64,000 nucleotides of DNA. Source: Minisyncoccota bacterium (GTDB lineage Bacteria; Patescibacteriota; Minisyncoccia; Phycocordibacterales; UBA918). Positions 1 to 25,703 of the stretch are shown here, piece after piece. Every line of letters starts with the position of its first letter. Position 1 is the stretch's first letter. Both the position numbers and the translations under genes were made by a program. A model generated the notes under the pieces. It did not search any database, was not told the DNA's origin, and worked only from the letters and a program-made list of their open reading frames with translations. The stretch is taken from contig JBDNIW010000014.1 of NCBI GenBank assembly GCA_041688155.1, positions 9,517 to 73,516 on the forward strand, read 5' to 3'.

Positions 1-275
1 CAAAGGGCTGATGAACTGATGGAGGAGAATTGTGACGGTGGACTTGGTCGTAGCTTCGGCAAAGGTGTTGTCCCCAATTGACAGACGCACCCTATTTGCG
101 GTCGCATCGGTTAGACCTTTGTCTGGGGATGATGTGAGCTCAGCCGCTAACGAGTCGACGCTGTTCGCCCAAGGATTCACGATTGGTTTGTATTGCTTCA
201 TAGGTAAGTATACTGATTGTATCAAACGGCTTGGATATCGCGCCTTGATTATACCTATGATACAATCGTACCCAT

Positions 276-971
276 ATGAAAAACCCATGGCTTATTTTTG
301 GAGGGATTATTGCAGTGCTGTTTATCGGGGCGTTTTATATCGCTGGCACGGCGGGTGACGCTAATAACGAAGGTGTTGAGGAGTTAACACACGTCAAAGG
401 CAACCCTGACGCAGCGGTAACACTGGTTGAGTACAGTGATTTCCAATGTCCAGCTTGTCGGGCGATGTATCCCATGGTCAATGAACTGATGGAGCAGTAC
501 GGTGAATCACTCCGGTTCGAGTACCGCCACTTTCCAATAGAGCGAGCGCACCCGTACGCGGTCCAAGCTGCGATGGCGGTGGAAGCGGCTGGTCAACAAG
601 GGAAGTTTTACGAATTTCACGATCTCGTGTTTGAAAACCAGCAAGTTTGGTCTCAAAGTCCAACGCCAAACGTACTGTTTGCGCAATATGCACAAGAGTT
701 AGAACTCGATATGGATATGTATCGTCGACACGCTAACGCAAGCCTGCTACGAGAAAAAGTCCGTGCGCAGCAACAGGAGGGACTAGAGATGGGTGTCACC
801 GGCACACCGACAATGTTCCTCAACGGTGAGCGAATGCAGTATGGTACCTATGAAGAATTTATCACTCAGATTGCGACCGCAATCGATCCCACAGCAGCCG
901 CAACCGTTCAGGCTGAGGATACAGCCGTGGTCGGCGAAACCGCTGGTGAACCAGTGCGGTTTGGGCTCTAA
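276..971 (+). CDS. DsbA-family thiol:disulfide oxidoreductase (thioredoxin fold)
   Basis: N-terminal hydrophobic anchor; CxxC active site 'FQCPACRAMYP'; ~230 aa typical of DsbA/BdbD. Confidence 0.8.
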   Translation: MKNPWLIFGGIIAVLFIGAFYIAGTAGDANNEGVEELTHVKGNPDAAVTLVEYSDFQCPACRAMYPMVNELMEQYGESLRFEYRHFPIERAHPYAVQAAMAVEAAGQQGKFYEFHDLVFENQQVWSQSPTPNVLFAQYAQELELDMDMYRRHANASLLREKVRAQQQEGLEMGVTGTPTMFLNGERMQYGTYEEFITQIATAIDPTAAATVQAEDTAVVGETAGEPVRFGL

Positions 972-1058
972 TGCTCAATTCTCTGCTACCAGTGGCTGGG
1001 TCACAAAAAGGTTGTCCGGTAGGTCGTATTAGTAATTTGGCAGTCTAAGTCGTCGAGT

Positions 1059-2333
1059 ATGGGAACAGCGGTTGATGTAGAGTGGTTCAAACAAATACAG
1101 CAAGTGTGCGCCGCGACAGAAGAGGTTGAGTGGCTGCAAAAAAACATGCAGATTATTGAGGAAGAGCGTGAGCAGTTTCTGGCTAACGAAATCGAAAACC
1201 CACAATTTACCTATAAACCCCCCACCCAAGCGACGGCGCTGATTGCTCAGGTGGAAGCGTTGGCTGCCACCATTGCCACCACCGAAACTAACCCCGTAGT
1301 AGCTGACCTGTACAAACACAAAATTGCAAACCAGATCACCCGGATTGGTCTGGCAGTCGCCTCTGGCGCTGGTAACGACAAAGACTTCTATACCCTGAGT
1401 TGTGTGCTCTACGGGAAACCGCGCAAAAAATATTTTGCCTATATCGCCAAGCAAGTGGTGGAGCAGTACAAGCAAGTCAACCAAGCTGGCGGCAGTGTTG
1501 GCAAACCACTCTATAAAATAGTATCCAAAATCGACACGACCAAAGTCGATATCAGTGCTGGCATTTTGCCTCCGCCGGTTGCAGAAGTGGAGCTGGTCGA
1601 GTCGGTCGCGCAAGCGGTGGCTATTTTTGAGCACGCTTTGCATAAACTAGAAATCACCGGTTGGCAAGTAGTGGTCGAGGAGCAGAGCAATCGGTCGCGG
1701 TTTTCGGTTAGTGCGCATAACAAGCGGGTATTTGTACCAAACCAAACCCAGCTGGATCGCCGCGGTAAAAAAATGACTACAGTTCAGCTTGAGGGTATTG
1801 TTGAGCATGAGATCGGCGTGCACGCCAACCGCGCTAATGCTGGCAGCAACAGCCAGCTACAGTTGTTGGGTATCGGTCTTGATTCTTACCTCAGAGGGGA
1901 GGAGGGTTTGGCAAGCTACGTCCAGCAGCAGGTGGAAGGCGCCCAAGAGTTCTACGGGTTTGATCGATACTTGGCCGCGTCGCTCGCTGTGGGGATGGAC
2001 GGGAGTAAGCGGGACTTCCGCGGGGTGTTTGAGTTGATGGTGGCGTACTATCAGTTGCAGTTTGCGTCTACTGGCCAAAAACCGTCATATAATAGAATTC
2101 AAAATGCGGCTTGGGAAGTGTGTCTGCGGGTATTTCGCGGTACTACTGGACAAACGCCAGGATGTGTCTACACTAAAGACATCGTCTATCTAGAAGGTAA
2201 CATCGGTATCTGGCATTTCTTGTCGGATAAGCCGCACACGTTCCCAGCTTTTTTTGTTGGTAAATACAACCCGTTATTACCAAGACACGTCAAGGCGCTG
2301 CAGACATTGGGGATTATTACACAAGACTGGTAA
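1059..2333 (+). CDS. DUF1704 / 'QEGLA-motif' family protein with HExxH (putative metallopeptidase-like)
   Basis: 'GEEGLASY' (QEGLA-like) and 'VEHEIGVHANRA' (HExxH) motifs; 424 aa; sits first in conserved 3-gene cluster. Confidence 0.65.
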   Translation: MGTAVDVEWFKQIQQVCAATEEVEWLQKNMQIIEEEREQFLANEIENPQFTYKPPTQATALIAQVEALAATIATTETNPVVADLYKHKIANQITRIGLAVASGAGNDKDFYTLSCVLYGKPRKKYFAYIAKQVVEQYKQVNQAGGSVGKPLYKIVSKIDTTKVDISAGILPPPVAEVELVESVAQAVAIFEHALHKLEITGWQVVVEEQSNRSRFSVSAHNKRVFVPNQTQLDRRGKKMTTVQLEGIVEHEIGVHANRANAGSNSQLQLLGIGLDSYLRGEEGLASYVQQQVEGAQEFYGFDRYLAASLAVGMDGSKRDFRGVFELMVAYYQLQFASTGQKPSYNRIQNAAWEVCLRVFRGTTGQTPGCVYTKDIVYLEGNIGIWHFLSDKPHTFPAFFVGKYNPLLPRHVKALQTLGIITQDW

Positions 2334-2335
2334 CT

Positions 2336-3271
2336 ATGGACAATATGTATAAAACTATGTTGATGGGAGTGGGACTACTGATAATGGGGCCGACGCTCAT
2401 GCACGCACAGTATGACTTTGCGAGTGATCAACCTGCTGCTACTGAGTCGACCTCCAGTATCACAGCTGCGACCACGACTGTCGCTTCAACCACGCTGTTA
2501 AACCTGATCGGTCAAAGTGTAAACGCCAACCAGCAAAACAACCTCACTCAAGCCGAAGAGCTACCCGAAAAAGTCGCGATTATTTCGCTGTTTGATACGC
2601 GCTTAGTGACGGAACCGTCGGGACTCAATATATTTGCCTACTGGGTCCAGGAAGCGGTGCGGATGGGGATTCCGGCTAACACGATATTTCTGATTCTGTT
2701 GACGCCATTTCTAGCACTGCTGGTCAGCTTTACGCGGGTAGTGATTGGGTTGCCAACACTTGATATGCTGGTGCCAATTGCGTTGGCATTTGCGCTCGTG
2801 GCGGTTGGTATCACCATTGGGCTGTTTGTCTTGCTGGCGATTATTTTGGCGTCGTTTATCGCCAAACGCAGTCTGTCCAGCCTCAAAATCATGTTTTATC
2901 CCAAGCGGTCGTTCTCGATGTTGTTCTTGGCGATTGCGGTGTTTGCCGCTTTAACGTTTGGTGCCATTTTAGATTTAGACCGGATTTTGACGGTGTCGAT
3001 TTTCCCGATTTTGATTTTGATGTTACTGGGCGACTTGATTGTGTCGGTGCAGCTGCACAAAAGCGCCCAAGAGACATTTCTCATCACGGGTACGACGGTG
3101 TTGCTGGGGATTATTGGCTACTTTGCGGCTACCAGTCAATTGATTCAGAATACCCTAATTCTGTACCCAGAAATCCTGCTGTTGGTGATCCCGCTCAACA
3201 TACTAGTGGGTCGGTACTTTGGACTACGGGTGCTAGAGCTGTTTCGATTCAATAACGTGTCGACTGATTAG
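2336..3271 (+). CDS. polytopic (about 7-TM) membrane protein, partner of ATP-grasp/QEGLA cluster
   Basis: signal peptide, Ser/Thr-rich ectodomain, then multiple hydrophobic helices; 3-nt spacing to flanking genes. Confidence 0.6.
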   Translation: MDNMYKTMLMGVGLLIMGPTLMHAQYDFASDQPAATESTSSITAATTTVASTTLLNLIGQSVNANQQNNLTQAEELPEKVAIISLFDTRLVTEPSGLNIFAYWVQEAVRMGIPANTIFLILLTPFLALLVSFTRVVIGLPTLDMLVPIALAFALVAVGITIGLFVLLAIILASFIAKRSLSSLKIMFYPKRSFSMLFLAIAVFAALTFGAILDLDRILTVSIFPILILMLLGDLIVSVQLHKSAQETFLITGTTVLLGIIGYFAATSQLIQNTLILYPEILLLVIPLNILVGRYFGLRVLELFRFNNVSTD

Positions 3272-3273
3272 GT

Positions 3274-4563
3274 ATGGCCATCAGTCAAGCATTGCTCGGG
3301 ATGAACGCCCGCAACTACCTCTATATCAGACAGCTCAACCGGCGCAACCATAAACTGGTGGCTGATGATAAACTACTCACCAAACAGATTTTGCTCAAAA
3401 ACGGCGTCGCCACTGACCCGATTTTAGCGCATTTCAAAACCCTGCAAGACGTGCGGACATTTGACTGGACCAGCTTGCCGACTGACTTTGTACTCAAACC
3501 ATCCCACGGGTACGGTGGGCGCGGGATAACCATCATTCGGGATTGGAACGGTGTGTCAGGGACTATCAGCAATGGCCAAACGGTGACTGAGATAGACGTC
3601 GAACGGATGGTGTTTGGTGCGCTTGATGGGGAACATTCACTCAACAATTTACCAGACACGGTGTTTATCGAAAACCGAATCATTCCGCACGCTTTTTTCA
3701 AAAAATACGTTCAGTCTGGCGTACCCGACATCCGGGTGATTGTCTGCAACAAAGTGCCAGTGATGGCGATGATGCGCTTACCAACTGTGTACTCCGACGG
3801 AAAGGCTAATTTGCACCTAGGCGCACTTGGGATCGGGATTGATATGCGCACGGGGATTACGACGTTTGGTACGTTGCACAACAAACTAGTGGACTACATT
3901 CCCAAAACTAAAATCAAAGTCCGGGGGCTCAAAATCCCCGACTGGGAGACTATCCTTGAGACGTCAGTGGCGGCACAGGTGAGTTCCAAGTTAGGGTTTG
4001 CGGGGATTGACATCGTGCTTGATAACGCGCGCGGCCCGTTGGTGCTAGAGATCAACGCCCGCCCAGGACTGAGTATTCAGATTGCTAATCAAGCCTCGCT
4101 GCGGACGAGACTCGAACGTATCGCTGACCTCAAAGTGCCGTCGGTCGAGCGTGGCGTTGAACTGGCCAAACAGCTGTTCGCTGAGCAGCAGCTCGAGGAC
4201 GTCAAGTCAGAAGACCGGGTGTTGGGGGTGATTGAAAAAATCGTCATCTATGGCAGCAAAAAGAAAAAAACCGTCCGGGCCAAAGTCGATACCGGCGCAT
4301 ATCGTACGTCAATTGATAGTGATTTGGTTGAAGAGTTGGGGCTCGATGCGCGCAACAAGTTCGTTCGCGTACGCTCAGGCAGCGGTCGCCAAAAGCGGCG
4401 TACAGTCGCGGTACGATTCAAAATGAAAGGCAAGGAGATTGATTCGATAGCCACGTACACCCCCCGCGACCACCTGCGCTTCCCAGTGATTATCGGACGG
4501 CGTGACATGAAAGGGTTCGTGGTTGACCCCAATGATATCCCCGCCGGCGTCACGGTGAGATAA
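3274..4563 (+). CDS. ATP-grasp (RimK / alpha-L-glutamate-ligase-like) domain fused to C-terminal retropepsin-like aspartyl protease domain
   Basis: ATP-grasp-like N-terminal ~300 aa; C-terminal 'RAKVDTGAYRTSID' (D-T-G-A aspartic protease signature) resembling RimK-associated 'putative ATP-dependent zinc protease' retropepsin fold. Confidence 0.7.
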   Translation: MAISQALLGMNARNYLYIRQLNRRNHKLVADDKLLTKQILLKNGVATDPILAHFKTLQDVRTFDWTSLPTDFVLKPSHGYGGRGITIIRDWNGVSGTISNGQTVTEIDVERMVFGALDGEHSLNNLPDTVFIENRIIPHAFFKKYVQSGVPDIRVIVCNKVPVMAMMRLPTVYSDGKANLHLGALGIGIDMRTGITTFGTLHNKLVDYIPKTKIKVRGLKIPDWETILETSVAAQVSSKLGFAGIDIVLDNARGPLVLEINARPGLSIQIANQASLRTRLERIADLKVPSVERGVELAKQLFAEQQLEDVKSEDRVLGVIEKIVIYGSKKKKTVRAKVDTGAYRTSIDSDLVEELGLDARNKFVRVRSGSGRQKRRTVAVRFKMKGKEIDSIATYTPRDHLRFPVIIGRRDMKGFVVDPNDIPAGVTVR

Positions 4564-4583
4564 ACCCGTGTTACTATTGTGGT

Positions 4584-5330
4584 ATGTTTCGGACGCGCGA
4601 TTTTGTACTGCTGTTTTCTGCCATCATGTTTTTGGTTTTGGCTATTGGGACGACGCTGCTGACGCAGGGTCGGTCCGCTAGTACGATTGCGGTCCCGTTT
4701 GAGCCAGGGGTAGAGTCTGATGTCAGGTACGTTGCAACTATTGCGCCGTCAGATCAGCTCAATCGGGCAGAGCGGGTAGCGGATATGCGCGCCAAAATCT
4801 CGCAAGAGGCGTTTGTCTATGAACCAGCACCTGAGGTCATCGTAGCTACCAACCCGGCCACTAGTACTGAAGAATCTACAGACGTGGTTACAACTGGCGC
4901 GGTGGAGTGTGCAACCTACCAACCATATCTCGGGTTCTGGGACGCCCGCGGGTTGACCCTCACCCTGGCTGCAGGCACCAGGATGCTGACTCGAGCTACC
5001 GCTGCTACCTCTTCCAGTCTAGAGGTGATACTACAATTGCCAATTGGGTCACAACCAAGTGGTAACCCAACTTGTCTCCAGTCTGATGTTATCGGGATTG
5101 CCAACGATGGATCGTTGATCCGTAACGACGAAGTCGCTTTGTATAGTATTTTTGGAGCCGAAACAGTTATCGGCTACGCATTGGATGGATTTCCAATCTA
5201 TGGTGCCGGTGCCGGTGTAGCGGATGCTTGTAGCGGTCGGTTAGTAGCTGGGCAGTTTCGGTATGAAATACAGCGAGGTGGTGTGACCATTATTAACTGT
5301 TTTGCGGCTACGCCGGTAACTCTCCCGTAG
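4584..5330 (+). CDS. hypothetical membrane-anchored protein
   Basis: N-terminal TM helix then Thr/Ala/Gly-rich domain; no recognised motif. Confidence 0.5.
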   Translation: MFRTRDFVLLFSAIMFLVLAIGTTLLTQGRSASTIAVPFEPGVESDVRYVATIAPSDQLNRAERVADMRAKISQEAFVYEPAPEVIVATNPATSTEESTDVVTTGAVECATYQPYLGFWDARGLTLTLAAGTRMLTRATAATSSSLEVILQLPIGSQPSGNPTCLQSDVIGIANDGSLIRNDEVALYSIFGAETVIGYALDGFPIYGAGAGVADACSGRLVAGQFRYEIQRGGVTIINCFAATPVTLP

Positions 5331-5331
5331 T

Positions 5332-6060
5332 ATGGCGACGCTAGTGTTTGATATCGAAACCGTGGGTCAAGATTGGGATACTATCCCCGAATCAACCCAG
5401 TACGCGCTGACCAAATGGATTGGTCAGCAACCAGTGAGCGATGAAGAGAAAGATCGGCAAAGTGAAGCGGTCAAAGAAAAACTTGGTTTGTCACCCTTTA
5501 CCGCCGAAGTCATCTCGCTGGCGATGTACGACCTGGAACGCCAGCAAGGCGCCGTGTATTTTGTGGCTGATGATTCGGTGAGAGATTACGGTGTCGGTGA
5601 CTGGAAATACAAAGTGCGCACCGAGCAACAGTTACTCGAAGATTTCTGGGAGACCGCCCGCAGCTACGACGTGTTTGTCACGTTCAACGGCCGTTCGTTT
5701 GATATACCATTCCTTCTGCACCGTTCATTGATACAAGGAGTGCGTCCGACCAAAGAGTTGACTGGACAACGGTACCTCAATCGGCAAAGTCCGCCGTACC
5801 ACATCGATTTGCTTGATGAGCTATCATTTTACGGTGCGATGCAACGCCGCCCGTCGTTACAGCTGTTGTGCGATGCCTACAACATCCCCTACGAAAAAGC
5901 GGGTATGGGAGGTGAGGACATCACCGAGTATTACATGAATAAAAAATATCGTGATATCGCCGAGAAAAACGCCGCTGATGTAGTCGCGACGACAGCCTTG
6001 TTTCAAAAATGGAAAACCAACCTAGCTCCTGCAAGTTTTATCAATGCAGTGGAATTTTAG
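5332..6060 (+). CDS. RNase H-like 3'-5' exonuclease (PolB-exonuclease-like / DEDDy family)
   Basis: 'LVFDIETVG' (Exo I DxE), 'FVTFNGRSFDIPFL' (Exo II), 'YHIDLLDE' (Exo III YxxxD). Confidence 0.6.
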   Translation: MATLVFDIETVGQDWDTIPESTQYALTKWIGQQPVSDEEKDRQSEAVKEKLGLSPFTAEVISLAMYDLERQQGAVYFVADDSVRDYGVGDWKYKVRTEQQLLEDFWETARSYDVFVTFNGRSFDIPFLLHRSLIQGVRPTKELTGQRYLNRQSPPYHIDLLDELSFYGAMQRRPSLQLLCDAYNIPYEKAGMGGEDITEYYMNKKYRDIAEKNAADVVATTALFQKWKTNLAPASFINAVEF

Positions 6061-6123
6061 CGAAGGCGCTAATTTGTCCCACACTTGAGGTAGGACAAAT
6101 TAGTAGTTTGCTATAATTTCAAT

Positions 6124-6756
6124 ATGAAAAATATTCTCGCCTTACTCGCTGACTGGGCTAATGGCTTGTTTGCTGTCCTGATTGCGTCGTGGTGGTTTGG
6201 GGTTGAGCCACTCTGGTGGCACTTTGCTATTGGGCTAGTGTTATCACATGCACCAGATCTAGATGCAATCCCAGAGCTACTCAGGCGCGGCCGCGTAGCT
6301 GCTAGTGCTGAGCACCCACATGATCACCGCGAGGCACTACACTATCCAATCATCTTGATTACGCTGGCTGTGCTAGTCGCGTACTTTATTCCGTACTGGG
6401 GAACAATTTTCTTGGTAGCGGTCGCACTACATCTCATAAATGATTTATATGGAACTGGCTGGGGAATTAAATTATTTTGGCCACTGTCAAAAAAGAACTA
6501 CAAACTGCTTGGTCGACGGGTTAATCGTCTAGAGTACATACTTAAATCTGATGGAGATTGGGAGCAACAACCTGAATCAGAGCGAAAGCTTCGTTGGTTG
6601 GTATCTTGGTCGCCAGAAGAATTACCTGGCTACATGACGCGGTGGGGAATTGACGACTGGATTCCCAAATACTACGGCACTTTGAACCGTATTTCGGCAG
6701 TTGAATACTCATTATTTCTACTAGCGATTATTTTGACTGGGCTGGCTCTGGTATAG
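6124..6756 (+). CDS. membrane-bound metal-dependent hydrolase (YdjM/DUF457-like)
   Basis: several TM helices with conserved His/Asp ('LSHAPDLD', 'EHPHDHRE'). Confidence 0.5.
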   Translation: MKNILALLADWANGLFAVLIASWWFGVEPLWWHFAIGLVLSHAPDLDAIPELLRRGRVAASAEHPHDHREALHYPIILITLAVLVAYFIPYWGTIFLVAVALHLINDLYGTGWGIKLFWPLSKKNYKLLGRRVNRLEYILKSDGDWEQQPESERKLRWLVSWSPEELPGYMTRWGIDDWIPKYYGTLNRISAVEYSLFLLAIILTGLALV

Positions 6757-6765
6757 TAGGGTCAT

Positions 6766-7992
6766 ATGCAACGAGATTTTCCGGAGGGATTTTACTGGGG
6801 GGCGGCAACCGCTTCGTATCAGGTTGAGGGTGGGATTGATGACTGCGACTGGGCTGAAGGCGCCCGCGAGGGTAGGGTGCCGGTATGTGGGCGAGCGTGT
6901 GACCACTATAACCGGTACGAGGCGGATTTTGATTTAGCGGTAGAACTTGGGCACACCGCCCACCGGTTCTCGATTGAGTGGGCACGGATTGAACCGGAGG
7001 AAGGCGTGTTTGATCGTGAAGAAATTGAGCACTATCGTCAGGTGTTACAAGCGCTGAAAAGTCGTAACATCAAGCCGTTTGTGACGCTCTGGCACTTCAC
7101 CCAGCCACTGTGGTTCTCGCAATCAGGTGGATTTGAGCGAGTGGATTCACCGGAGGTGTTTGCCCGCTACGCCCAGTTTGTGGTAGAGCAGCTTGGTGAT
7201 TTATGTGACCATTTCTCGACTATGAACGAGCCAAATGTGTTTGGCAGTAACGGCTGGCTGCGTGGAAATTGGCCACCGTTTAAACGGTTTGCGTTGACTG
7301 ATTTAGTATCAATAACTAACTCAGGCAATAATTTTGAAGATAGGGCGCAAAAGGGATTTAAAAACCTGTTTCTATATCGTCGAGTGATGAAACACCTGGC
7401 CCAGTCACACAATGCAGCGTACCGAGCCATTAAGAAAGTTTCTCCTCAGACTGAGGTGAGTGTGGTTAAACACGTAATTGTGTTTGCTACCAACAAGAAT
7501 CCGGTTAACGCTATCAAAGCCGCTGTAGCCAATTATGCCTGGACACGAGTGTTTATGAATCGAACGCACAAATATTGCGACTCGATTGGTCTCAACTACT
7601 ATTTTTATACGCAGTTTGGTGACAAGCGTGACTGGAGAAAGACTGACATGGATTGGAACTTTGCCCCAGATCACATCTATGAGGCGCTGATGATGTTAGC
7701 CCGGTATAACAAGCCGTTGTTTGTATCAGAAGCTGGTATTGCAGACCACGACGACTCTGATCGAGCAGAATACATTACCAAACAAGTTGCAGGGGTTCGC
7801 CGTGCAATTGCTGATGGGGCTGACGTTCGTGGGCACCTCTATTGGTCACTGATGGACAATTACGAGTGGGCGCTTGGGTTTGAAAAGCAGTTTGGTCTAA
7901 TTCACATCAATTACGACACCCTTGAACGGGAAATCCGGCCCAGTGCGTGGGTGTATAAAGACCTGATTGAGCGGTACAGCAAGGTAGAATAA
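6766..7992 (+). CDS. glycoside hydrolase family 1 (beta-glucosidase-like)
   Basis: N-terminal 'FPEGFYWGAATASYQVEGG', acid/base 'TMNEPNVF', nucleophile region 'FVSEAGIAD'. Confidence 0.85.
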   Translation: MQRDFPEGFYWGAATASYQVEGGIDDCDWAEGAREGRVPVCGRACDHYNRYEADFDLAVELGHTAHRFSIEWARIEPEEGVFDREEIEHYRQVLQALKSRNIKPFVTLWHFTQPLWFSQSGGFERVDSPEVFARYAQFVVEQLGDLCDHFSTMNEPNVFGSNGWLRGNWPPFKRFALTDLVSITNSGNNFEDRAQKGFKNLFLYRRVMKHLAQSHNAAYRAIKKVSPQTEVSVVKHVIVFATNKNPVNAIKAAVANYAWTRVFMNRTHKYCDSIGLNYYFYTQFGDKRDWRKTDMDWNFAPDHIYEALMMLARYNKPLFVSEAGIADHDDSDRAEYITKQVAGVRRAIADGADVRGHLYWSLMDNYEWALGFEKQFGLIHINYDTLEREIRPSAWVYKDLIERYSKVE

Positions 7993-7998
7993 AGCGTA

Positions 7999-8931
7999 AT
8001 GGGCTGGATACTACTTGCGTCGGCCGGACAGGTTTTGAACGCCATCGTCGCGATTCTCGACAAATACATCGTTTCGGATGATAACGCGTTGCCGCGGCCG
8101 TTTGTGTACGCGTTTTATTCTTGTTTGCTGACTGGTGGGTGGGCGTTTGTTTATTTGATTGGCGTGGTACCTGGTTTGCATGAGTTGGGGGCACCGTCGT
8201 ATAAAGAAATCCTAGCACCGACGTTGAACGTGGTGGCGCTGGCGTTCCTCGCGGCCTACACGTTTTTTATGGCGCTGGTGTCGATGTACATAGCCCTTAA
8301 GCAAGCTGACGCTAGCAATGTGATGCCCATCATTGGGTCAGTCTCAGCGCTGTCAGCCTTTGGGATGAGTTACTTATTTCTAGACGCGGCCTTGTCGAGT
8401 AACTTTATCTGGGGGATCATCATTCTCGCTGCTGGGACACTGCTCGTCGCACAGACGCTCCCCAAAGTAGGTGTCATCATGCACGTGGCGCACTCGGGGT
8501 TATTTTTCGGGTTGCATGCAATCACGATGAAAGGTTTATTTTTGGAAACTAGTTTCGACGATGGGTTTTTTTGGTCACGGGTCGGATTCGTGTTGTTTGC
8601 ACTATCACTCCTGCTCGTACCAACCTACTACCACAAAATCACCGAGCAAACCAAGGGCACCACCAAAAAAACTGGAGTGATTGTACTACTGACCAAAGTG
8701 TTGGCTGGGGTAGCAGCATTTATGCTACTCAAAGCCACTGACCTCGGTGAAGTGTCAGTCGTGCAAGCGCTCGATGGGCTTAAATTTGTGTTTATTTTGG
8801 TGATAAGTATTGTGTTTGCACACTACTTGCCTAATAGCGCAACTGACCGCGACACCAGACCAGGGACGGTGTTTCGCAAACTACTGTTTGTGATTGTGAT
8901 CATGGTTGGGTTTGTGATGTTGCTTGCATGA
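7999..8931 (+). CDS. polytopic membrane protein, DMT/EamA-like transporter (tentative)
   Basis: about 10 predicted TM helices in two halves; no soluble domain. Confidence 0.45.
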   Translation: MGWILLASAGQVLNAIVAILDKYIVSDDNALPRPFVYAFYSCLLTGGWAFVYLIGVVPGLHELGAPSYKEILAPTLNVVALAFLAAYTFFMALVSMYIALKQADASNVMPIIGSVSALSAFGMSYLFLDAALSSNFIWGIIILAAGTLLVAQTLPKVGVIMHVAHSGLFFGLHAITMKGLFLETSFDDGFFWSRVGFVLFALSLLLVPTYYHKITEQTKGTTKKTGVIVLLTKVLAGVAAFMLLKATDLGEVSVVQALDGLKFVFILVISIVFAHYLPNSATDRDTRPGTVFRKLLFVIVIMVGFVMLLA

Positions 8932-25464: not shown

Positions 25465-25551
25465 GGAGAGATGGCAGAGTGGTCGATCGCGCATCCTTGG
25501 AAAGGATGTATACGTTTACGCGTATCGGGGGTTCGAATCCCCCTCTCTCCG
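25465..25551 (+). tRNA. tRNA-Ser (anticodon GGA)
   Basis: GGAGAGA/TCTCTCC acceptor stem; anticodon stem-loop CATCC-TTGGAAA-GGATG with anticodon GGA; long variable arm ATACG...CGTAT; T-arm GGGGG-TTCGAAT-CCCCC; CCA not encoded. Confidence 0.9.
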
Positions 25552-25703
25552 CATGAACGTAGTGAATAAGGAGAGAGAGTAAAGCGCGGGGCGCTTTACG
25601 TGGGGATTCGAAAAGCTTTTGAGTCAGATTGGGAGCTTTGCTCCCCAATCTGTCCAAAAGGTATACCGCTCGTGTAACGAGAGAAATTCCCCCTCTCTCC
25701 GCA
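25552..25703. repeat. about 150-bp direct repeat copy 1, starting immediately 3' of tRNA-Ser and ending in a copy of the tRNA 3' end (attccccctctctccgca)
   Basis: about 95% identical to 26777-26926; last 19 nt match the tRNA 3' end. Confidence 0.85.

What the first reader, a model, noticed from the sequence alone, without database searches (positions are those of the whole stretch)
3274..4563. ATP-grasp ligase fused in one polypeptide to a retropepsin-like (DTG) protease domain
In most genomes the RimK-type ATP-grasp and its associated retropepsin-fold protein (the so-called 'ATP-dependent zinc protease') are separate genes. Here a ~300-aa ATP-grasp module is followed in frame by a ~110-aa domain carrying the D-T-G-A catalytic signature ('RAKVDTGAYRTSIDSDLVEELGL').

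The fusion argues strongly for a functional coupling of ligation and proteolysis, or substrate docking. The single DTG suggests it acts as a dimer.
Basis: seen in the sequence. Interest (0 to 1): 0.55.

Follow-up and report, generated by a model that had tools for sequence, protein, structure and literature searches.

The report
Ligase fused to its trimming protease
One gene of an uncultured ultra-small (CPR) bacterium joins a peptide-building enzyme to an HIV-protease-like enzyme that probably trims its products; this is a reversed-order variant of a ligase/protease pairing already described in Pseudomonas, always found next to a membrane-protein gene.

Summary
ORF 3274..4563 (+, 429 aa) is one uninterrupted protein. 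Residues 5-305 form an RloC-type ATP-grasp ligase (PF14397, E 5e-65). A disordered linker follows, then residues 319-411 model confidently as a retropepsin half-barrel; the closest solved folds are RloA2, Lpg0085 and RloA, then HIV-1 protease. D339-T340-G341-A342 is invariant. It is not a frameshift: at least 455 metagenomic relatives and 12 genome loci, including a closed chromosome, keep the same frame.

A retropepsin/ATP-grasp hybrid, RimBK, was published and shown active in 2025, and the separate-gene RloABC and RimB-RimK systems are characterised. Three things differ here: the domain order is reversed, the ligase is RloC-type, and the host lineage is CPR.

Context adds the most. A 7TM (RloB-like) gene lies directly upstream in 72 of 72 testable loci. 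A MATCAP/TMCP-like carboxypeptidase gene precedes it in about 44%. Other lineages fuse the same four modules in other combinations.

The most likely function is a membrane-coupled machine that makes and trims acidic, polyglutamate-like chains. This is inferred, not shown. Verdict: new variant of a known kind, moderate interest.

The parts
1059..2333 (+). MATCAP/TMCP-family (DUF1704, 'QEGLA') metallocarboxypeptidase-like gene, 424 aa. It carries HExxxH (HEIGVH, residue 250) and EEG (residue 281) metal-site motifs. It is an accessory member of the cassette.
   Evidence: Pfam PF08014 E 7e-21; TIGR02421 80.5 bits, well below the 338.65-bit cut-off; motifs conserved in L002, L003, L011, P0166 and P0198. 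It lies upstream of the 7TM gene in 26 of 59 loci with enough upstream DNA. It is fused to the ligase-protease in P0166 and P0198.
2336..3271 (+). RloB-like 7TM membrane protein, 311 aa. It has an N-terminal hydrophobic leader, an acidic S/T-rich stretch of about 95 aa, then the TM bundle (residues about 119-297). It lacks the inactive transglutaminase domain of RloB.
   Evidence: PF14402 7TM_transglut E 1.3e-21, residues 116-308; NCBIfam RloB model matched only at its positions 312-505 of 508; hydropathy. It lies directly upstream of the fusion in 72 of 72 loci with upstream DNA. It has a conserved cytoplasmic tail motif G[RK]Y.GLR..E.[FW]RF.
3274..4563 (+). The whole fusion ORF, 429 aa, with no TM segment or signal peptide, so it is cytoplasmic.
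3286..4188 (+). RloC-type ATP-grasp amino-acid ligase domain (residues 5-305). Invariant residues include K75, the G79-Y80-G82-G84 loop, D246, E259, N261 and R263.
   Evidence: PF14397 E 5.3e-65; TIGR02291 264 bits over model positions 10-316 of 317. The AF2 model is at high confidence. Foldseek top hits are ArgX, RimK, LysX and cyanophycin synthetase, E about 4e-10. The ExN motif aligns to RimK. Invariant columns are in A1.
4189..4227 (+). Acidic interdomain linker (residues 306-318), predicted disordered.
   Evidence: pLDDT below 50 for residues 309-318. There is no stop or frame change, and the reading frame is conserved in all homologs.
4228..4506 (+). Retropepsin-like aspartic protease domain (residues 319-411). 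It is strongly basic and has no cysteine.
   Evidence: PF13650 above its cut-off; AF2 pLDDT 90.9; Foldseek to RloA2/Lpg0085/RloA, then HIV-1 protease; profile against the PDB; 27 K+R against 15 D+E.
4288..4299 (+). Catalytic motif D339-T340-G341-A342. K337, R375 and R398 align with the polyglutamate-binding residues K46, R114 and R137 of RloA. G408-R409-x-D411 is the retropepsin 'GRD/N' motif.
   Evidence: Invariant in A1. D, G and both arginines are invariant in the wider family alignment A2. The residue roles come from PMC12239564.

Best explanation
This is a genuine bifunctional cytoplasmic enzyme. The N-terminal RloC-type ATP-grasp ligase adds amino acids, most likely L-glutamate, to a carboxyl terminus, as RimK does. 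The C-terminal retropepsin domain pairs with the same domain of a second subunit to form the two-aspartate active site. It then cuts the acidic chains that the ligase makes.

The protein works with the 7TM membrane protein encoded immediately upstream, which probably anchors it at the membrane and may export the product. In this lineage it also works with a MATCAP/TMCP-like carboxypeptidase that nibbles the same chains from the C-terminus. Fusing the protease to the ligase guarantees one-to-one co-production of a ligase, whose unchecked activity is harmful in Pseudomonas, and its antagonist. As with RimB and RimK, the protease may also release product and keep the ligase turning over.

Shown here: the domain identities, the folds, the intact catalytic residues, and the conserved gene linkage and fusions. 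Inferred: the substrate (glutamate / polyglutamate), dimerisation, the role of the 7TM protein, and the physiological role (envelope or stress adaptation, by analogy with Rlo).
For: Domains and folds. Catalytic and nucleotide/metal-site residues are invariant across 40 homologs at 57-89% identity, and D[TS]GA is intact in 79 of 80.

Substrate specificity: K337, R375 and R398 align with RloA K46, R114 and R137. R114A and R137A reduced polyE cleavage most strongly in vitro and failed to rescue the mutant in vivo (PMC12239564). The two arginines are invariant across the whole domain family. The domain is net basic.

Linkage: the 7TM gene is directly upstream in 72 of 72 loci, often overlapping by 11-14 nt. 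MATCAP-like is upstream in 26 of 59. 'Rosetta-stone' fusions join the same modules: ATP-grasp+retropepsin+MATCAP, retropepsin+7TM+ATP-grasp, retropepsin+7TM, and retropepsin+RimK.

Precedent: RimB is a dimeric polyE endopeptidase that stimulates RimK, and the RimBK hybrid is active (PMC11957791). Loss of RloB or RloC suppresses the defects of the protease-less mutant (PMC12239564). MATCAP/TMCP enzymes shorten polyglutamate chains (PMC10499314).
Against: No biochemical data exist for this protein or for any RloC-type ligase, so the amino acid it adds and its acceptor are unknown. The scores fall below the curated cut-offs of TIGR02291 (264 against 314 bits) and PF05618 (24.8 against 27 bits), so this is a divergent relative, not an orthologue. 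RloA is secreted, whereas this domain is cytoplasmic, and close relatives fused to the 7TM protein carry signal peptides, so the compartment of action differs between lineages. The window encodes no protein with an acidic tail that could be the target. Pfam describes PF14397 as 'sugar-transfer associated', which would allow a different product. Dimerisation was not modelled.
Confidence: 0.6

Rival explanations
1. The C-terminal domain is mainly a regulatory or oligomerisation module. It binds and activates the ligase, as RimB raises RimK ATPase activity, and holds subunits together. Proteolysis is secondary or absent.
For: RimB stimulates RimK independently of RpsF cleavage (PMC11957791). In the Gracilibacteria locus L011 the domain stays between the ATP-grasp and MATCAP modules even though its motif has decayed to VDLTA and the GR motif is lost.
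Against: D[TS]GA is intact in 79 of 80 fused homologs, and the substrate-channel arginines are invariant. That is hard to explain without selection for catalysis. The isolated RimB domain of RimBK is an active protease.
Confidence: 0.15
2. The ligase makes something other than poly-alpha-glutamate, for example another amino-acid polymer or a peptide attached to a surface glycan or lipid. The protease then has a correspondingly different specificity.
For: Pfam names PF14397 'sugar-transfer associated ATP-grasp'. Some loci add one to three further RimK-type ligase genes and a GT4 glycosyltransferase, which suggests multi-step or mixed products. TIGR02291 is a 'hypothetical equivalog' with no assay behind it.
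Against: The polyE-contacting K/R residues of RloA are conserved and the domain is strongly basic. The associated MATCAP/TMCP family acts on C-terminal Glu/Tyr. The nearest structural relatives of the ligase, RimK and ArgX/LysX, act on Glu-type carboxylates.
Confidence: 0.2
3. The protein is a self-processing polyprotein. After dimerisation the retropepsin cuts itself free at the acidic linker, as retroviral Gag-Pol does, and so releases two separate enzymes.
For: The linker (residues 306-318) is disordered and acidic. Retropepsins embedded in polyproteins typically autoprocess (established knowledge of family A2).
Against: The linker holds only scattered Glu/Asp, whereas RloA and RimB need about eight consecutive Glu. 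D. psychrophila RimBK was purified as a hybrid protein. Nothing favours release, and release would undo the stoichiometric coupling.
Confidence: 0.05
4. The fusion is an artefact: a sequencing or assembly frameshift joined two adjacent genes.
For: None found.
Against: The same 428-430 aa architecture appears in more than 120 protein clusters, 12 genome loci including a closed chromosome, and at least 455 metagenomic hits from independent assemblies.
Confidence: 0.01

Closest known systems
RimBK hybrid enzyme (Desulfotalea psychrophila DP2392; Little et al., J Biol Chem 2025, PMC11957791)
   Same: One polypeptide combines a RimB/RloA-family retropepsin with a RimK-superfamily ATP-grasp ligase. 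The protease domain carries DTG and is active on polyglutamate tails. One example of this architecture, P0218, turned up in my own search.
   Different: The domain order is opposite: protease N-terminal in RimBK, C-terminal here. The RimBK ligase is canonical RimK (PF08443 full length), whereas here it is RloC-type (PF14397/TIGR02291). No 7TM partner is reported for RimBK. RimBK occurs mainly in Flavobacteriales and Rhodobacterales, this one mainly in CPR. It is therefore probably an independent fusion event.
RloABC operon of Pseudomonas aeruginosa (Lormand et al., mBio 2025, PMC12239564)
   Same: It has the same three module types: a retropepsin (RloA), a 7TM protein (RloB) and a TIGR02291-type ATP-grasp (RloC). 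The closest solved structures to the C-terminal domain are RloA2 and RloA. The polyE-binding residues are conserved.
   Different: RloA is a separate, secreted, disulfide-bonded protein with long flaps. Here the domain is fused, cytoplasmic, cysteine-free and has a short flap. RloB carries a periplasmic inactive transglutaminase domain that is absent here. The described rlo operon has no MATCAP-like gene. RloB was reported as 96% proteobacterial.
RimB-RimK (Pseudomonas fluorescens)
   Same: A cytoplasmic retropepsin dimer acts with an ATP-grasp glutamate ligase. The protease trims polyE and stimulates the ligase.
   Different: The genes are separate. The target is ribosomal protein S6. There is no membrane partner, and the ligase belongs to a different subfamily.
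Eukaryotic tubulin tail code: TTL/TTLL ATP-grasp ligases with MATCAP/TMCP and CCP carboxypeptidases (PMC10499314)
   Same: It uses the same writer/eraser logic, an ATP-grasp ligase opposed by a MATCAP-family HExxxH/EEG metallocarboxypeptidase that removes C-terminal Glu/Tyr.
   Different: It is eukaryotic and acts on tubulin, with no retropepsin and no 7TM protein. Homology of the ligases is only at superfamily level. This is an analogy plus shared MATCAP-family homology, not membership.
HIV-1 protease and Ddi1 (clan AA, retropepsin fold)
   Same: They share the half-barrel fold, the DTGA motif and the GR(D/N) motif, and they are obligate homodimers.
   Different: Sequence identity is about 20%. 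The channel here is basic rather than hydrophobic, and the context is bacterial and non-viral.

Membership tests
ATP-grasp superfamily, RloC-type 'alpha-L-glutamate ligase-like' (TIGR02291 / PF14397) | ATP-grasp fold | tested here: met
   AF2 model with Foldseek hits to ArgX, RimK and LysX, E about 4e-10
ATP-grasp superfamily, RloC-type 'alpha-L-glutamate ligase-like' (TIGR02291 / PF14397) | Pfam PF14397 score above the gathering cut-off over the full model | tested here: met
   219.8 bits against 31.4, model positions 2-276 of 278
ATP-grasp superfamily, RloC-type 'alpha-L-glutamate ligase-like' (TIGR02291 / PF14397) | NCBIfam TIGR02291 score above the curated cut-off (equivalog-level membership) | tested here: not met
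   264.2 bits against a 314.2 cut-off. It is the best-scoring family and covers the full length, so this is a divergent relative, not a certified orthologue of RloC.
ATP-grasp superfamily, RloC-type 'alpha-L-glutamate ligase-like' (TIGR02291 / PF14397) | Conserved nucleotide/Mg2+ site (Lys, Gly-rich loop, D...E-x-N) | tested here: met
   K75, G79/G82/G84, D246, E259 and N261 are invariant. ExN aligns to RimK.
ATP-grasp superfamily, RloC-type 'alpha-L-glutamate ligase-like' (TIGR02291 / PF14397) | ATP-dependent ligation of L-glutamate | not testable with these tools
   This needs an enzyme assay. It has not been shown for RloC itself either.
RimB/RloA retropepsin-like peptidases (PF05618 'Zn_protease', clan AA) | Retropepsin half-barrel fold | tested here: met
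   pLDDT 90.9. Top Foldseek hits are 9g59, 2pma and 9g58, then HIV-1 protease.
RimB/RloA retropepsin-like peptidases (PF05618 'Zn_protease', clan AA) | D-T-G-A catalytic motif and C-terminal G-R motif | tested here: met
   D339-A342, G408 and R409 are invariant.
RimB/RloA retropepsin-like peptidases (PF05618 'Zn_protease', clan AA) | PF05618 score above the gathering cut-off | tested here: not met
   24.8 bits against 27, whereas PF13650 Asp_protease_2 passes at 34.1 against 24.3. The family profile still finds RloA structures at E 3e-10. This is a short-flap sister subfamily.
RimB/RloA retropepsin-like peptidases (PF05618 'Zn_protease', clan AA) | Basic residues that bind polyglutamate (RloA K46, R114, R137) | tested here: met
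   K337, R375 and R398 align to them (residue roles).
RimB/RloA retropepsin-like peptidases (PF05618 'Zn_protease', clan AA) | Homodimer that forms the Asp dyad | not testable with these tools
   No multimer prediction was available. The domain has one DTG and no tandem copy in this protein.
RloA proper (secreted osmotic-stress peptidase) | N-terminal signal peptide and a conserved disulfide pair | tested here: not met
   The domain is internal to a cytoplasmic protein, with no TM or signal segment and no cysteine. The NCBIfam RloA3 score is 33 bits against a 210 cut-off.
RimBK hybrid | N-terminal RimB domain followed by a canonical RimK module | tested here: not met
   The order is ligase then protease. 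PF08443 matches only residues 233-267, and rimK_fam scores 57 bits against a 143 cut-off.
Rlo-type operon (retropepsin + 7TM + ATP-grasp) | Adjacent PF14402 7TM gene | tested here: met
   The gene at 2336..3271 matches PF14402 at E 1.3e-21. It is adjacent in 72 of 72 loci.
Rlo-type operon (retropepsin + 7TM + ATP-grasp) | Inactive transglutaminase domain on the 7TM protein (RloB) | tested here: not met
   Only RloB model positions 312-505 are matched. The N-terminal part is a low-complexity stretch of about 95 aa.
MATCAP/TMCP metallocarboxypeptidases (PF08014), for the neighbour 1059..2333 | PF08014 above its cut-off, with HExxxH and EEG metal-site motifs | tested here: met
   75 bits against 27. 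HEIGVH at 250 and EEG at 281. The motif definition is from PMC10499314.

The most novel reading that the evidence does not exclude
The 7TM + (ATP-grasp-retropepsin) cassette, with its MATCAP-like partner, may be a complete prokaryotic polyglutamylation system. It would have one writer (the ligase) and two erasers, an endopeptidase (retropepsin) and a C-terminal exopeptidase (MATCAP-like), coupled to a membrane conduit. It would be widespread in CPR bacteria and found in scattered other lineages. If so, the ancestral job of the MATCAP/TMCP family was to trim tails added by ATP-grasp ligases, and the eukaryotic tubulin ligase/carboxypeptidase pairing descends from such bacterial cassettes. The fused forms would also give a tractable single-protein route to the still unknown biochemistry of the clinically relevant Pseudomonas Rlo system.
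Probability: 0.3. Interest if true: 0.7.

Novelty: new variant of a known kind. Interest (0 to 1): 0.42.

Why it matters
The Pseudomonas Rlo system affects osmotic-stress survival, biofilm formation and antibiotic sensitivity, yet the product of its ligase and the role of its 7TM protein are unknown.

The fused forms found here tie the four modules together: ligase-protease, ligase-protease-MATCAP, protease-7TM and protease-7TM-ligase. This is independent, phylogenetically broad evidence that they act on one substrate.

They also show that the protease can sit on either side of the membrane. That constrains models of where the product is made and trimmed.

The system extends far beyond Proteobacteria, where the RloB-type component was thought to be concentrated. 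It also links a bacterial ligase cassette to the protein family that erases the tubulin tail code in eukaryotes.

The fusion itself, however, repeats a principle already demonstrated with RimBK.

Tried and rejected
- **Frameshift or assembly artefact:** rejected on conservation.
- **Single-sequence search of the C-terminal domain against the PDB:** gave only E 0.11 to 9g59. A family profile was needed.
- **Metagenome scan with the diverse C-domain alignment A2:** As a result, the genomic context of the standalone roughly 110-aa relatives was not examined.
- **Iyer et al. 2009 (PMC3268129, the paper behind PF14397 and PF14402):** not held under any identifier. I could not check whether it already notes this fusion or the DUF1704 link.
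- **Literature searches for DUF1704/QEGLA/TIGR02291:** returned only Plasmodium gene identifiers. Searches combining retropepsin, CPR and RimK found only the two 2025 papers.
- **Promoter and terminator scans of 1..8200:** at or below shuffle expectation, so uninformative about the transcription unit.
- **Search of the window for a candidate acceptor** (an acidic C-terminal tail or an internal poly-D/E run): found none.
- **Paralogs of the four modules elsewhere in the window:** none.
- **'Gammaproteobacteria' labels on four short MAG contigs carrying the fusion (L004, L005, L007, L009):** not verified.
Full report

The window contains one uninterrupted ORF at 3274..4563 on the + strand (ATG start, 429 aa). 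The quoted peptide RAKVDTGAYRTSIDSDLVEELGL is residues 335-357.

- Pfam places ATPgrasp_ST (PF14397) on residues 13-283 at E 5.3e-65.
- Pfam places Asp_protease_2 (PF13650) on residues 332-408 at E 4.4e-8, above its gathering score. Weaker matches go to gag-asp_proteas and to PF05618, the misnamed 'ATP-dependent zinc protease' family of RimB/RloA.
- NCBIfam gives TIGR02291, 'alpha-L-glutamate ligase-like protein', as by far the best full-length model (264 bits, model positions 10-316 of 317). It gives weak hits to the RloA3 and RloA2 retropepsin models.

**2. Is the fusion an artefact?**

No.

- A protein search returned more than 120 clusters of 420-439 aa at 58-98% identity, all with both domains. 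Sources named them only 'aspartyl protease family protein', 'ATP-grasp domain-containing protein' or 'alpha-L-glutamate ligase-like protein', from Candidatus Kaiserbacteria, Nomurabacteria and Pacebacteria.
- A genome scan found 12 loci. They include the closed Nomurabacteria chromosome CP060229.1, plus Parcubacteria, Woesebacteria, Microgenomates and other Patescibacteria MAGs. Four short contigs are labelled Gammaproteobacteria or Pseudomonadales; I did not verify those labels.
- A metagenome scan found at least 455 relatives.
- In a 40-sequence alignment both domains are strongly conserved (mean column identity 73%) and the frame is continuous.
- D[TS]GA is intact in 79 of 80 full-length fused homologs.
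- The window itself shares synteny with, and 70-73% identity to, Parcubacteria/Nomurabacteria loci. It is therefore a CPR/Patescibacteria genome fragment with 48% GC.

**3. Structure.**

The full-length AF2 model has pLDDT 82.4 and pTM 0.68.

| Region | Residues | Model confidence |
|---|---|---|
| ATP-grasp body | 5-305 | high |
| Linker | 309-318 | pLDDT below 50 |
| All-beta domain with one short helix | 318-409 | confident |
| C-terminal tail | 412-429 | disordered |

- Foldseek places the N-terminal part next to ArgX, RimK, LysX, cyanophycin synthetase and Ddl, at E about 4e-10.
- The C-terminal domain was modelled alone with a 53-sequence family alignment and reached pLDDT 90.9 and pTM 0.82.
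- Its best solved matches are P. aeruginosa RloA2 (9g59, E 4.6e-7), Legionella Lpg0085 (2pma) and P. fluorescens RloA (9g58). Dozens of HIV-1 protease entries follow at E about 1e-5, with target-normalised TM-scores of 0.60-0.71.
- The family profile finds the same RloA-type structures at E 3e-10 to 1e-8, then Ddi1 (7e-6) and the rickettsial ApRick protease.

**4. Are the active sites intact?**

- **Ligase.** K75, the G79-Y80-G-G82-x-G84 loop, D246, E259, N261 and R263 are invariant. The E-x-N segment aligns to the corresponding RimK segment.
- **Protease.** D339-T340-G341-A342 and G408-R409-x-D411 are invariant. Alanine after DTG is a retropepsin hallmark (PMC12239564).
- **Wider family.** Across an alignment that includes standalone relatives at 31-51% identity, the only invariant positions are the Asp, the Gly of DTG, two arginines and the Gly of the GR motif.
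- **The two arginines.** R375 and R398 align with the arginines of the '...ARPV...' and '...TDRS...' segments of RloA. By their spacing from the catalytic Asp (66 and 89 residues) these are RloA R114 and R137. K337 corresponds to K46.
- **Why that matters.** Lormand et al. showed that RloA cleaves runs of at least 8 Glu. R114A and R137A had the strongest effects on cleavage in vitro and failed to rescue the mutant in vivo.
- **Other properties.** The domain is strongly basic (27 K+R against 15 D+E). It has no cysteine, and the whole protein has no TM or signal segment. It is therefore cytoplasmic, like RimB and unlike the secreted, disulfide-bonded RloA.

**5. Genomic context.**

All three genes are on the same strand, with 2-nt gaps between them.

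| Coordinates | Length | Identity | Evidence |
|---|---|---|---|
| 1059..2333 | 424 aa | MATCAP/DUF1704-family protein (PF08014, E 7e-21) with HEIGVH (residue 250) and EEG (residue 281) | |
| 2336..3271 | 311 aa | 7TM protein (PF14402, E 1.3e-21) | |
| 3274..4563 | 429 aa | the fusion | |

- HExxxH plus EEG are the metal-site motifs described for the tubulin carboxypeptidases KIAA0895L/TMCP. Those enzymes also shorten polyglutamate chains (PMC10499314).
- The 7TM protein matches only the C-terminal 7TM part of the RloB model. It lacks RloB's inactive transglutaminase domain.

I then surveyed 92 loci (12 genomic, 80 metagenomic, 46-99% identity):

- A 7TM ORF lies immediately upstream on the same strand in all 72 loci that have at least 700 nt of upstream DNA. 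It often overlaps the fusion by 11 or 14 nt.
- Seven apparent exceptions came from over-extended ORF start calls. In each, the homologous region starts within about 15 nt of the 7TM stop.
- The MATCAP-like gene precedes the 7TM gene in 26 of 59 loci with enough upstream sequence.
- Thirteen loci add one to three canonical RimK-type ligase genes.

The conserved core is thus the two-gene cassette of 7TM then ligase-protease. The MATCAP-like gene and the extra ligases are lineage-specific accessories. Genes further downstream in the window are syntenic only in close relatives, so I do not count them as part of the system. These are a YHYH-like protein, a PolB-type exonuclease, a YdjM-like protein and a GH1-like protein.

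**6. Other architectures of the same protease domain.**

An exhaustive search with residues 305-429 against 1.84 billion cluster representatives found 563 proteins at E 1e-3 or better. Classifying the best 150 gave:

| Architecture | Count | Examples |
|---|---|---|
| Protease domain only (many about 105-160 aa) | 100 | P0133 |
| ATP-grasp then protease | about 25 | P0120, P0145 |
| Protease then 7TM | 16 | P0159, P0237; P0130 with two protease copies |
| Tandem protease pairs | 7 | P0127 |
| ATP-grasp + protease + MATCAP (about 800 aa) | 2 | P0166, P0198 |
| Protease + 7TM + ATP-grasp (657 aa) | 1 | P0140 |
| Protease + canonical RimK, the RimBK type (496 aa) | 1 | P0218 |

- Nine of the ten protease-7TM fusions I inspected begin with a predicted signal peptide or membrane anchor (P0227 has none by the hydropathy scan). 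That places the protease outside the cell.
- In the window protein the protease is inside. The same subfamily therefore works on both sides of the membrane.
- The Gracilibacteria locus L011 has a 777-aa ATP-grasp + MATCAP protein. Its middle region is a decayed copy of the protease domain: AKVDLTAEE in place of AKVDTGA, and LLAGKY in place of IIGRRD.

**7. How it most likely works.**

The published facts are:

- RimK adds Glu to the C-terminus of S6 and makes poly-alpha-glutamate.
- RimB is a dimeric endopeptidase that removes these tails and also stimulates RimK (PMC11957791).
- Loss of the three RloA proteases is harmful, and deleting rloB or rloC suppresses that harm (PMC12239564). This implies that the ligase/7TM pair makes something that must be trimmed.

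On that basis I infer the following:

- The window protein is a self-contained writer-plus-eraser. The ligase extends an acidic chain, and the protease domains of two subunits pair to cut it. That limits chain length and may release product.
- The 7TM partner anchors the enzyme and possibly exports the product. The P0140 fusion joins the cytoplasmic end of the 7TM bundle directly to the ligase.
- The MATCAP-like enzyme removes residues from the end to which the ligase adds them.
- Fusion enforces 1:1 co-production of a potentially harmful ligase and its antagonist. That is a plausible advantage in streamlined CPR genomes.

The substrate identity, dimerisation, the export role and the physiology are inferences. 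Rival explanations are scored separately: a scaffold or activator role, a non-glutamate product, autoprocessing, and artefact.

**8. Comparison with what is known.**

Little et al. (2025) described RimBK, a RimB-RimK hybrid from Desulfotalea psychrophila. It is active as a protease and was found in 12% of rim-bearing genomes, against 44% with separate genes.

The protein here differs in several ways:

- The domain order is reversed.
- The ligase is RloC-type, not RimK.
- A 7TM partner is obligatory.
- The protease domain has a short flap and no cysteine.
- The MATCAP-like gene is frequently linked.
- The distribution is mainly CPR.

It fails the curated cut-offs for TIGR02291, PF05618 and the RloA/RloB NCBIfam models. 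It should therefore be called a divergent relative of the Rlo/Rim systems, not a member of either.

My literature searches found no description of this architecture, of the CPR cassette, or of the MATCAP link. The key comparative-genomics paper (Iyer et al. 2009) could not be read, so prior mention there cannot be excluded.

**9. Verdict.**

Novelty is 'new variant of a known kind'.

The fusion alone is only mildly surprising after RimBK. The added value lies in the invariant 7TM linkage, the combinatorial fusions that include MATCAP-family carboxypeptidases, and the two-sided topology of the protease. Together these make the unknown biochemistry of Rlo-type systems more testable. Interest is 0.42.

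Noticed in passing
L011:5989-8322 (Candidatus Gracilibacteria MAG JALVIB010000037.1): A 777-aa protein with ATPgrasp_ST and MATCAP domains. The region between them is a decayed retropepsin domain: AKVDLTAEE instead of AKVDTGA, and LLAGKY instead of IIGRRD. The upstream 7TM protein carries PKD domains instead of a transglutaminase domain.
   Followed up: partly
Proteins P0166 (800 aa) and P0198 (798 aa): Triple fusions of ATP-grasp + retropepsin (DTGA or DSGA) + MATCAP-like carboxypeptidase (HExxxH and EEG intact). A ligase and two different peptidases sit in one chain.
   Followed up: partly
Proteins P0159, P0237, P0130, P0140 and 12 others: The retropepsin is fused N-terminally to the 7TM protein. 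Nine of the ten inspected have a predicted signal peptide or anchor in front (not P0227), so the protease would be extracytoplasmic. P0140 continues into the ATP-grasp domain, so all three Rlo modules are in one 657-aa protein. The topology is opposite to that of the window protein.
   Followed up: partly
Protein P0219 (539 aa): A class I lysyl-tRNA synthetase (PF01921) carries a C-terminal retropepsin domain of this subfamily. This fusion is unexplained.
   Followed up: no
Proteins P0127, P0128, P0132, P0136 and P0157 (221-267 aa): Tandem duplications of the retropepsin domain in one chain. They are pepsin-like pseudo-dimers that arose within this bacterial subfamily.
   Followed up: no
L006:7317-9088, L009:2315-4077, L007:1316-2218, L010:7401-9408 and 9 metagenomic loci: In Woesebacteria/Microgenomates-type loci, one to three canonical RimK-type ATP-grasp genes follow the fusion. 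In L010 a GT4 glycosyltransferase follows as well. This hints at multi-step or mixed products.
   Followed up: partly
window 3226..3271 (C-terminal tail of the 7TM protein) and its homologs in L001-L011: The cytoplasmic tail motif G[RK]Y.GLR..E.[FW]RF is conserved from Parcubacteria to Gracilibacteria. It ends just before the start of the fusion gene and may be a docking site for the ligase.
   Followed up: no
L004, L005, L007, L009: Four short MAG contigs carrying the 7TM + fusion cassette are labelled Gammaproteobacteria or Pseudomonadales. L004 has a histidine kinase and a beta-lactamase-family gene upstream. Either the cassette occurs outside CPR or these contigs are mis-binned.
   Followed up: no
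window 4584..5330 (+): A 248-aa ORF with one N-terminal TM segment and a sub-threshold YHYH match. It is conserved directly downstream of the fusion in the close relatives L001-L003 but not in distant loci. Its function is unknown.
   Followed up: partly
window 5332..6060 (+), 276..971 (+), 6766..7992 (+), 25465..25552 (+): Other genes in the window: a PolB-type 3'-5' exonuclease-like gene (PF10108), a DsbA-like thioredoxin, a GH1-like gene syntenic with Parcubacteria loci, and a single tRNA-Ser(GGA). The 64 kb holds no rRNA or other Rfam family. 52 of 70 stop-to-stop reading frames of at least 150 aa (not curated genes) lie on the + strand.
   Followed up: no
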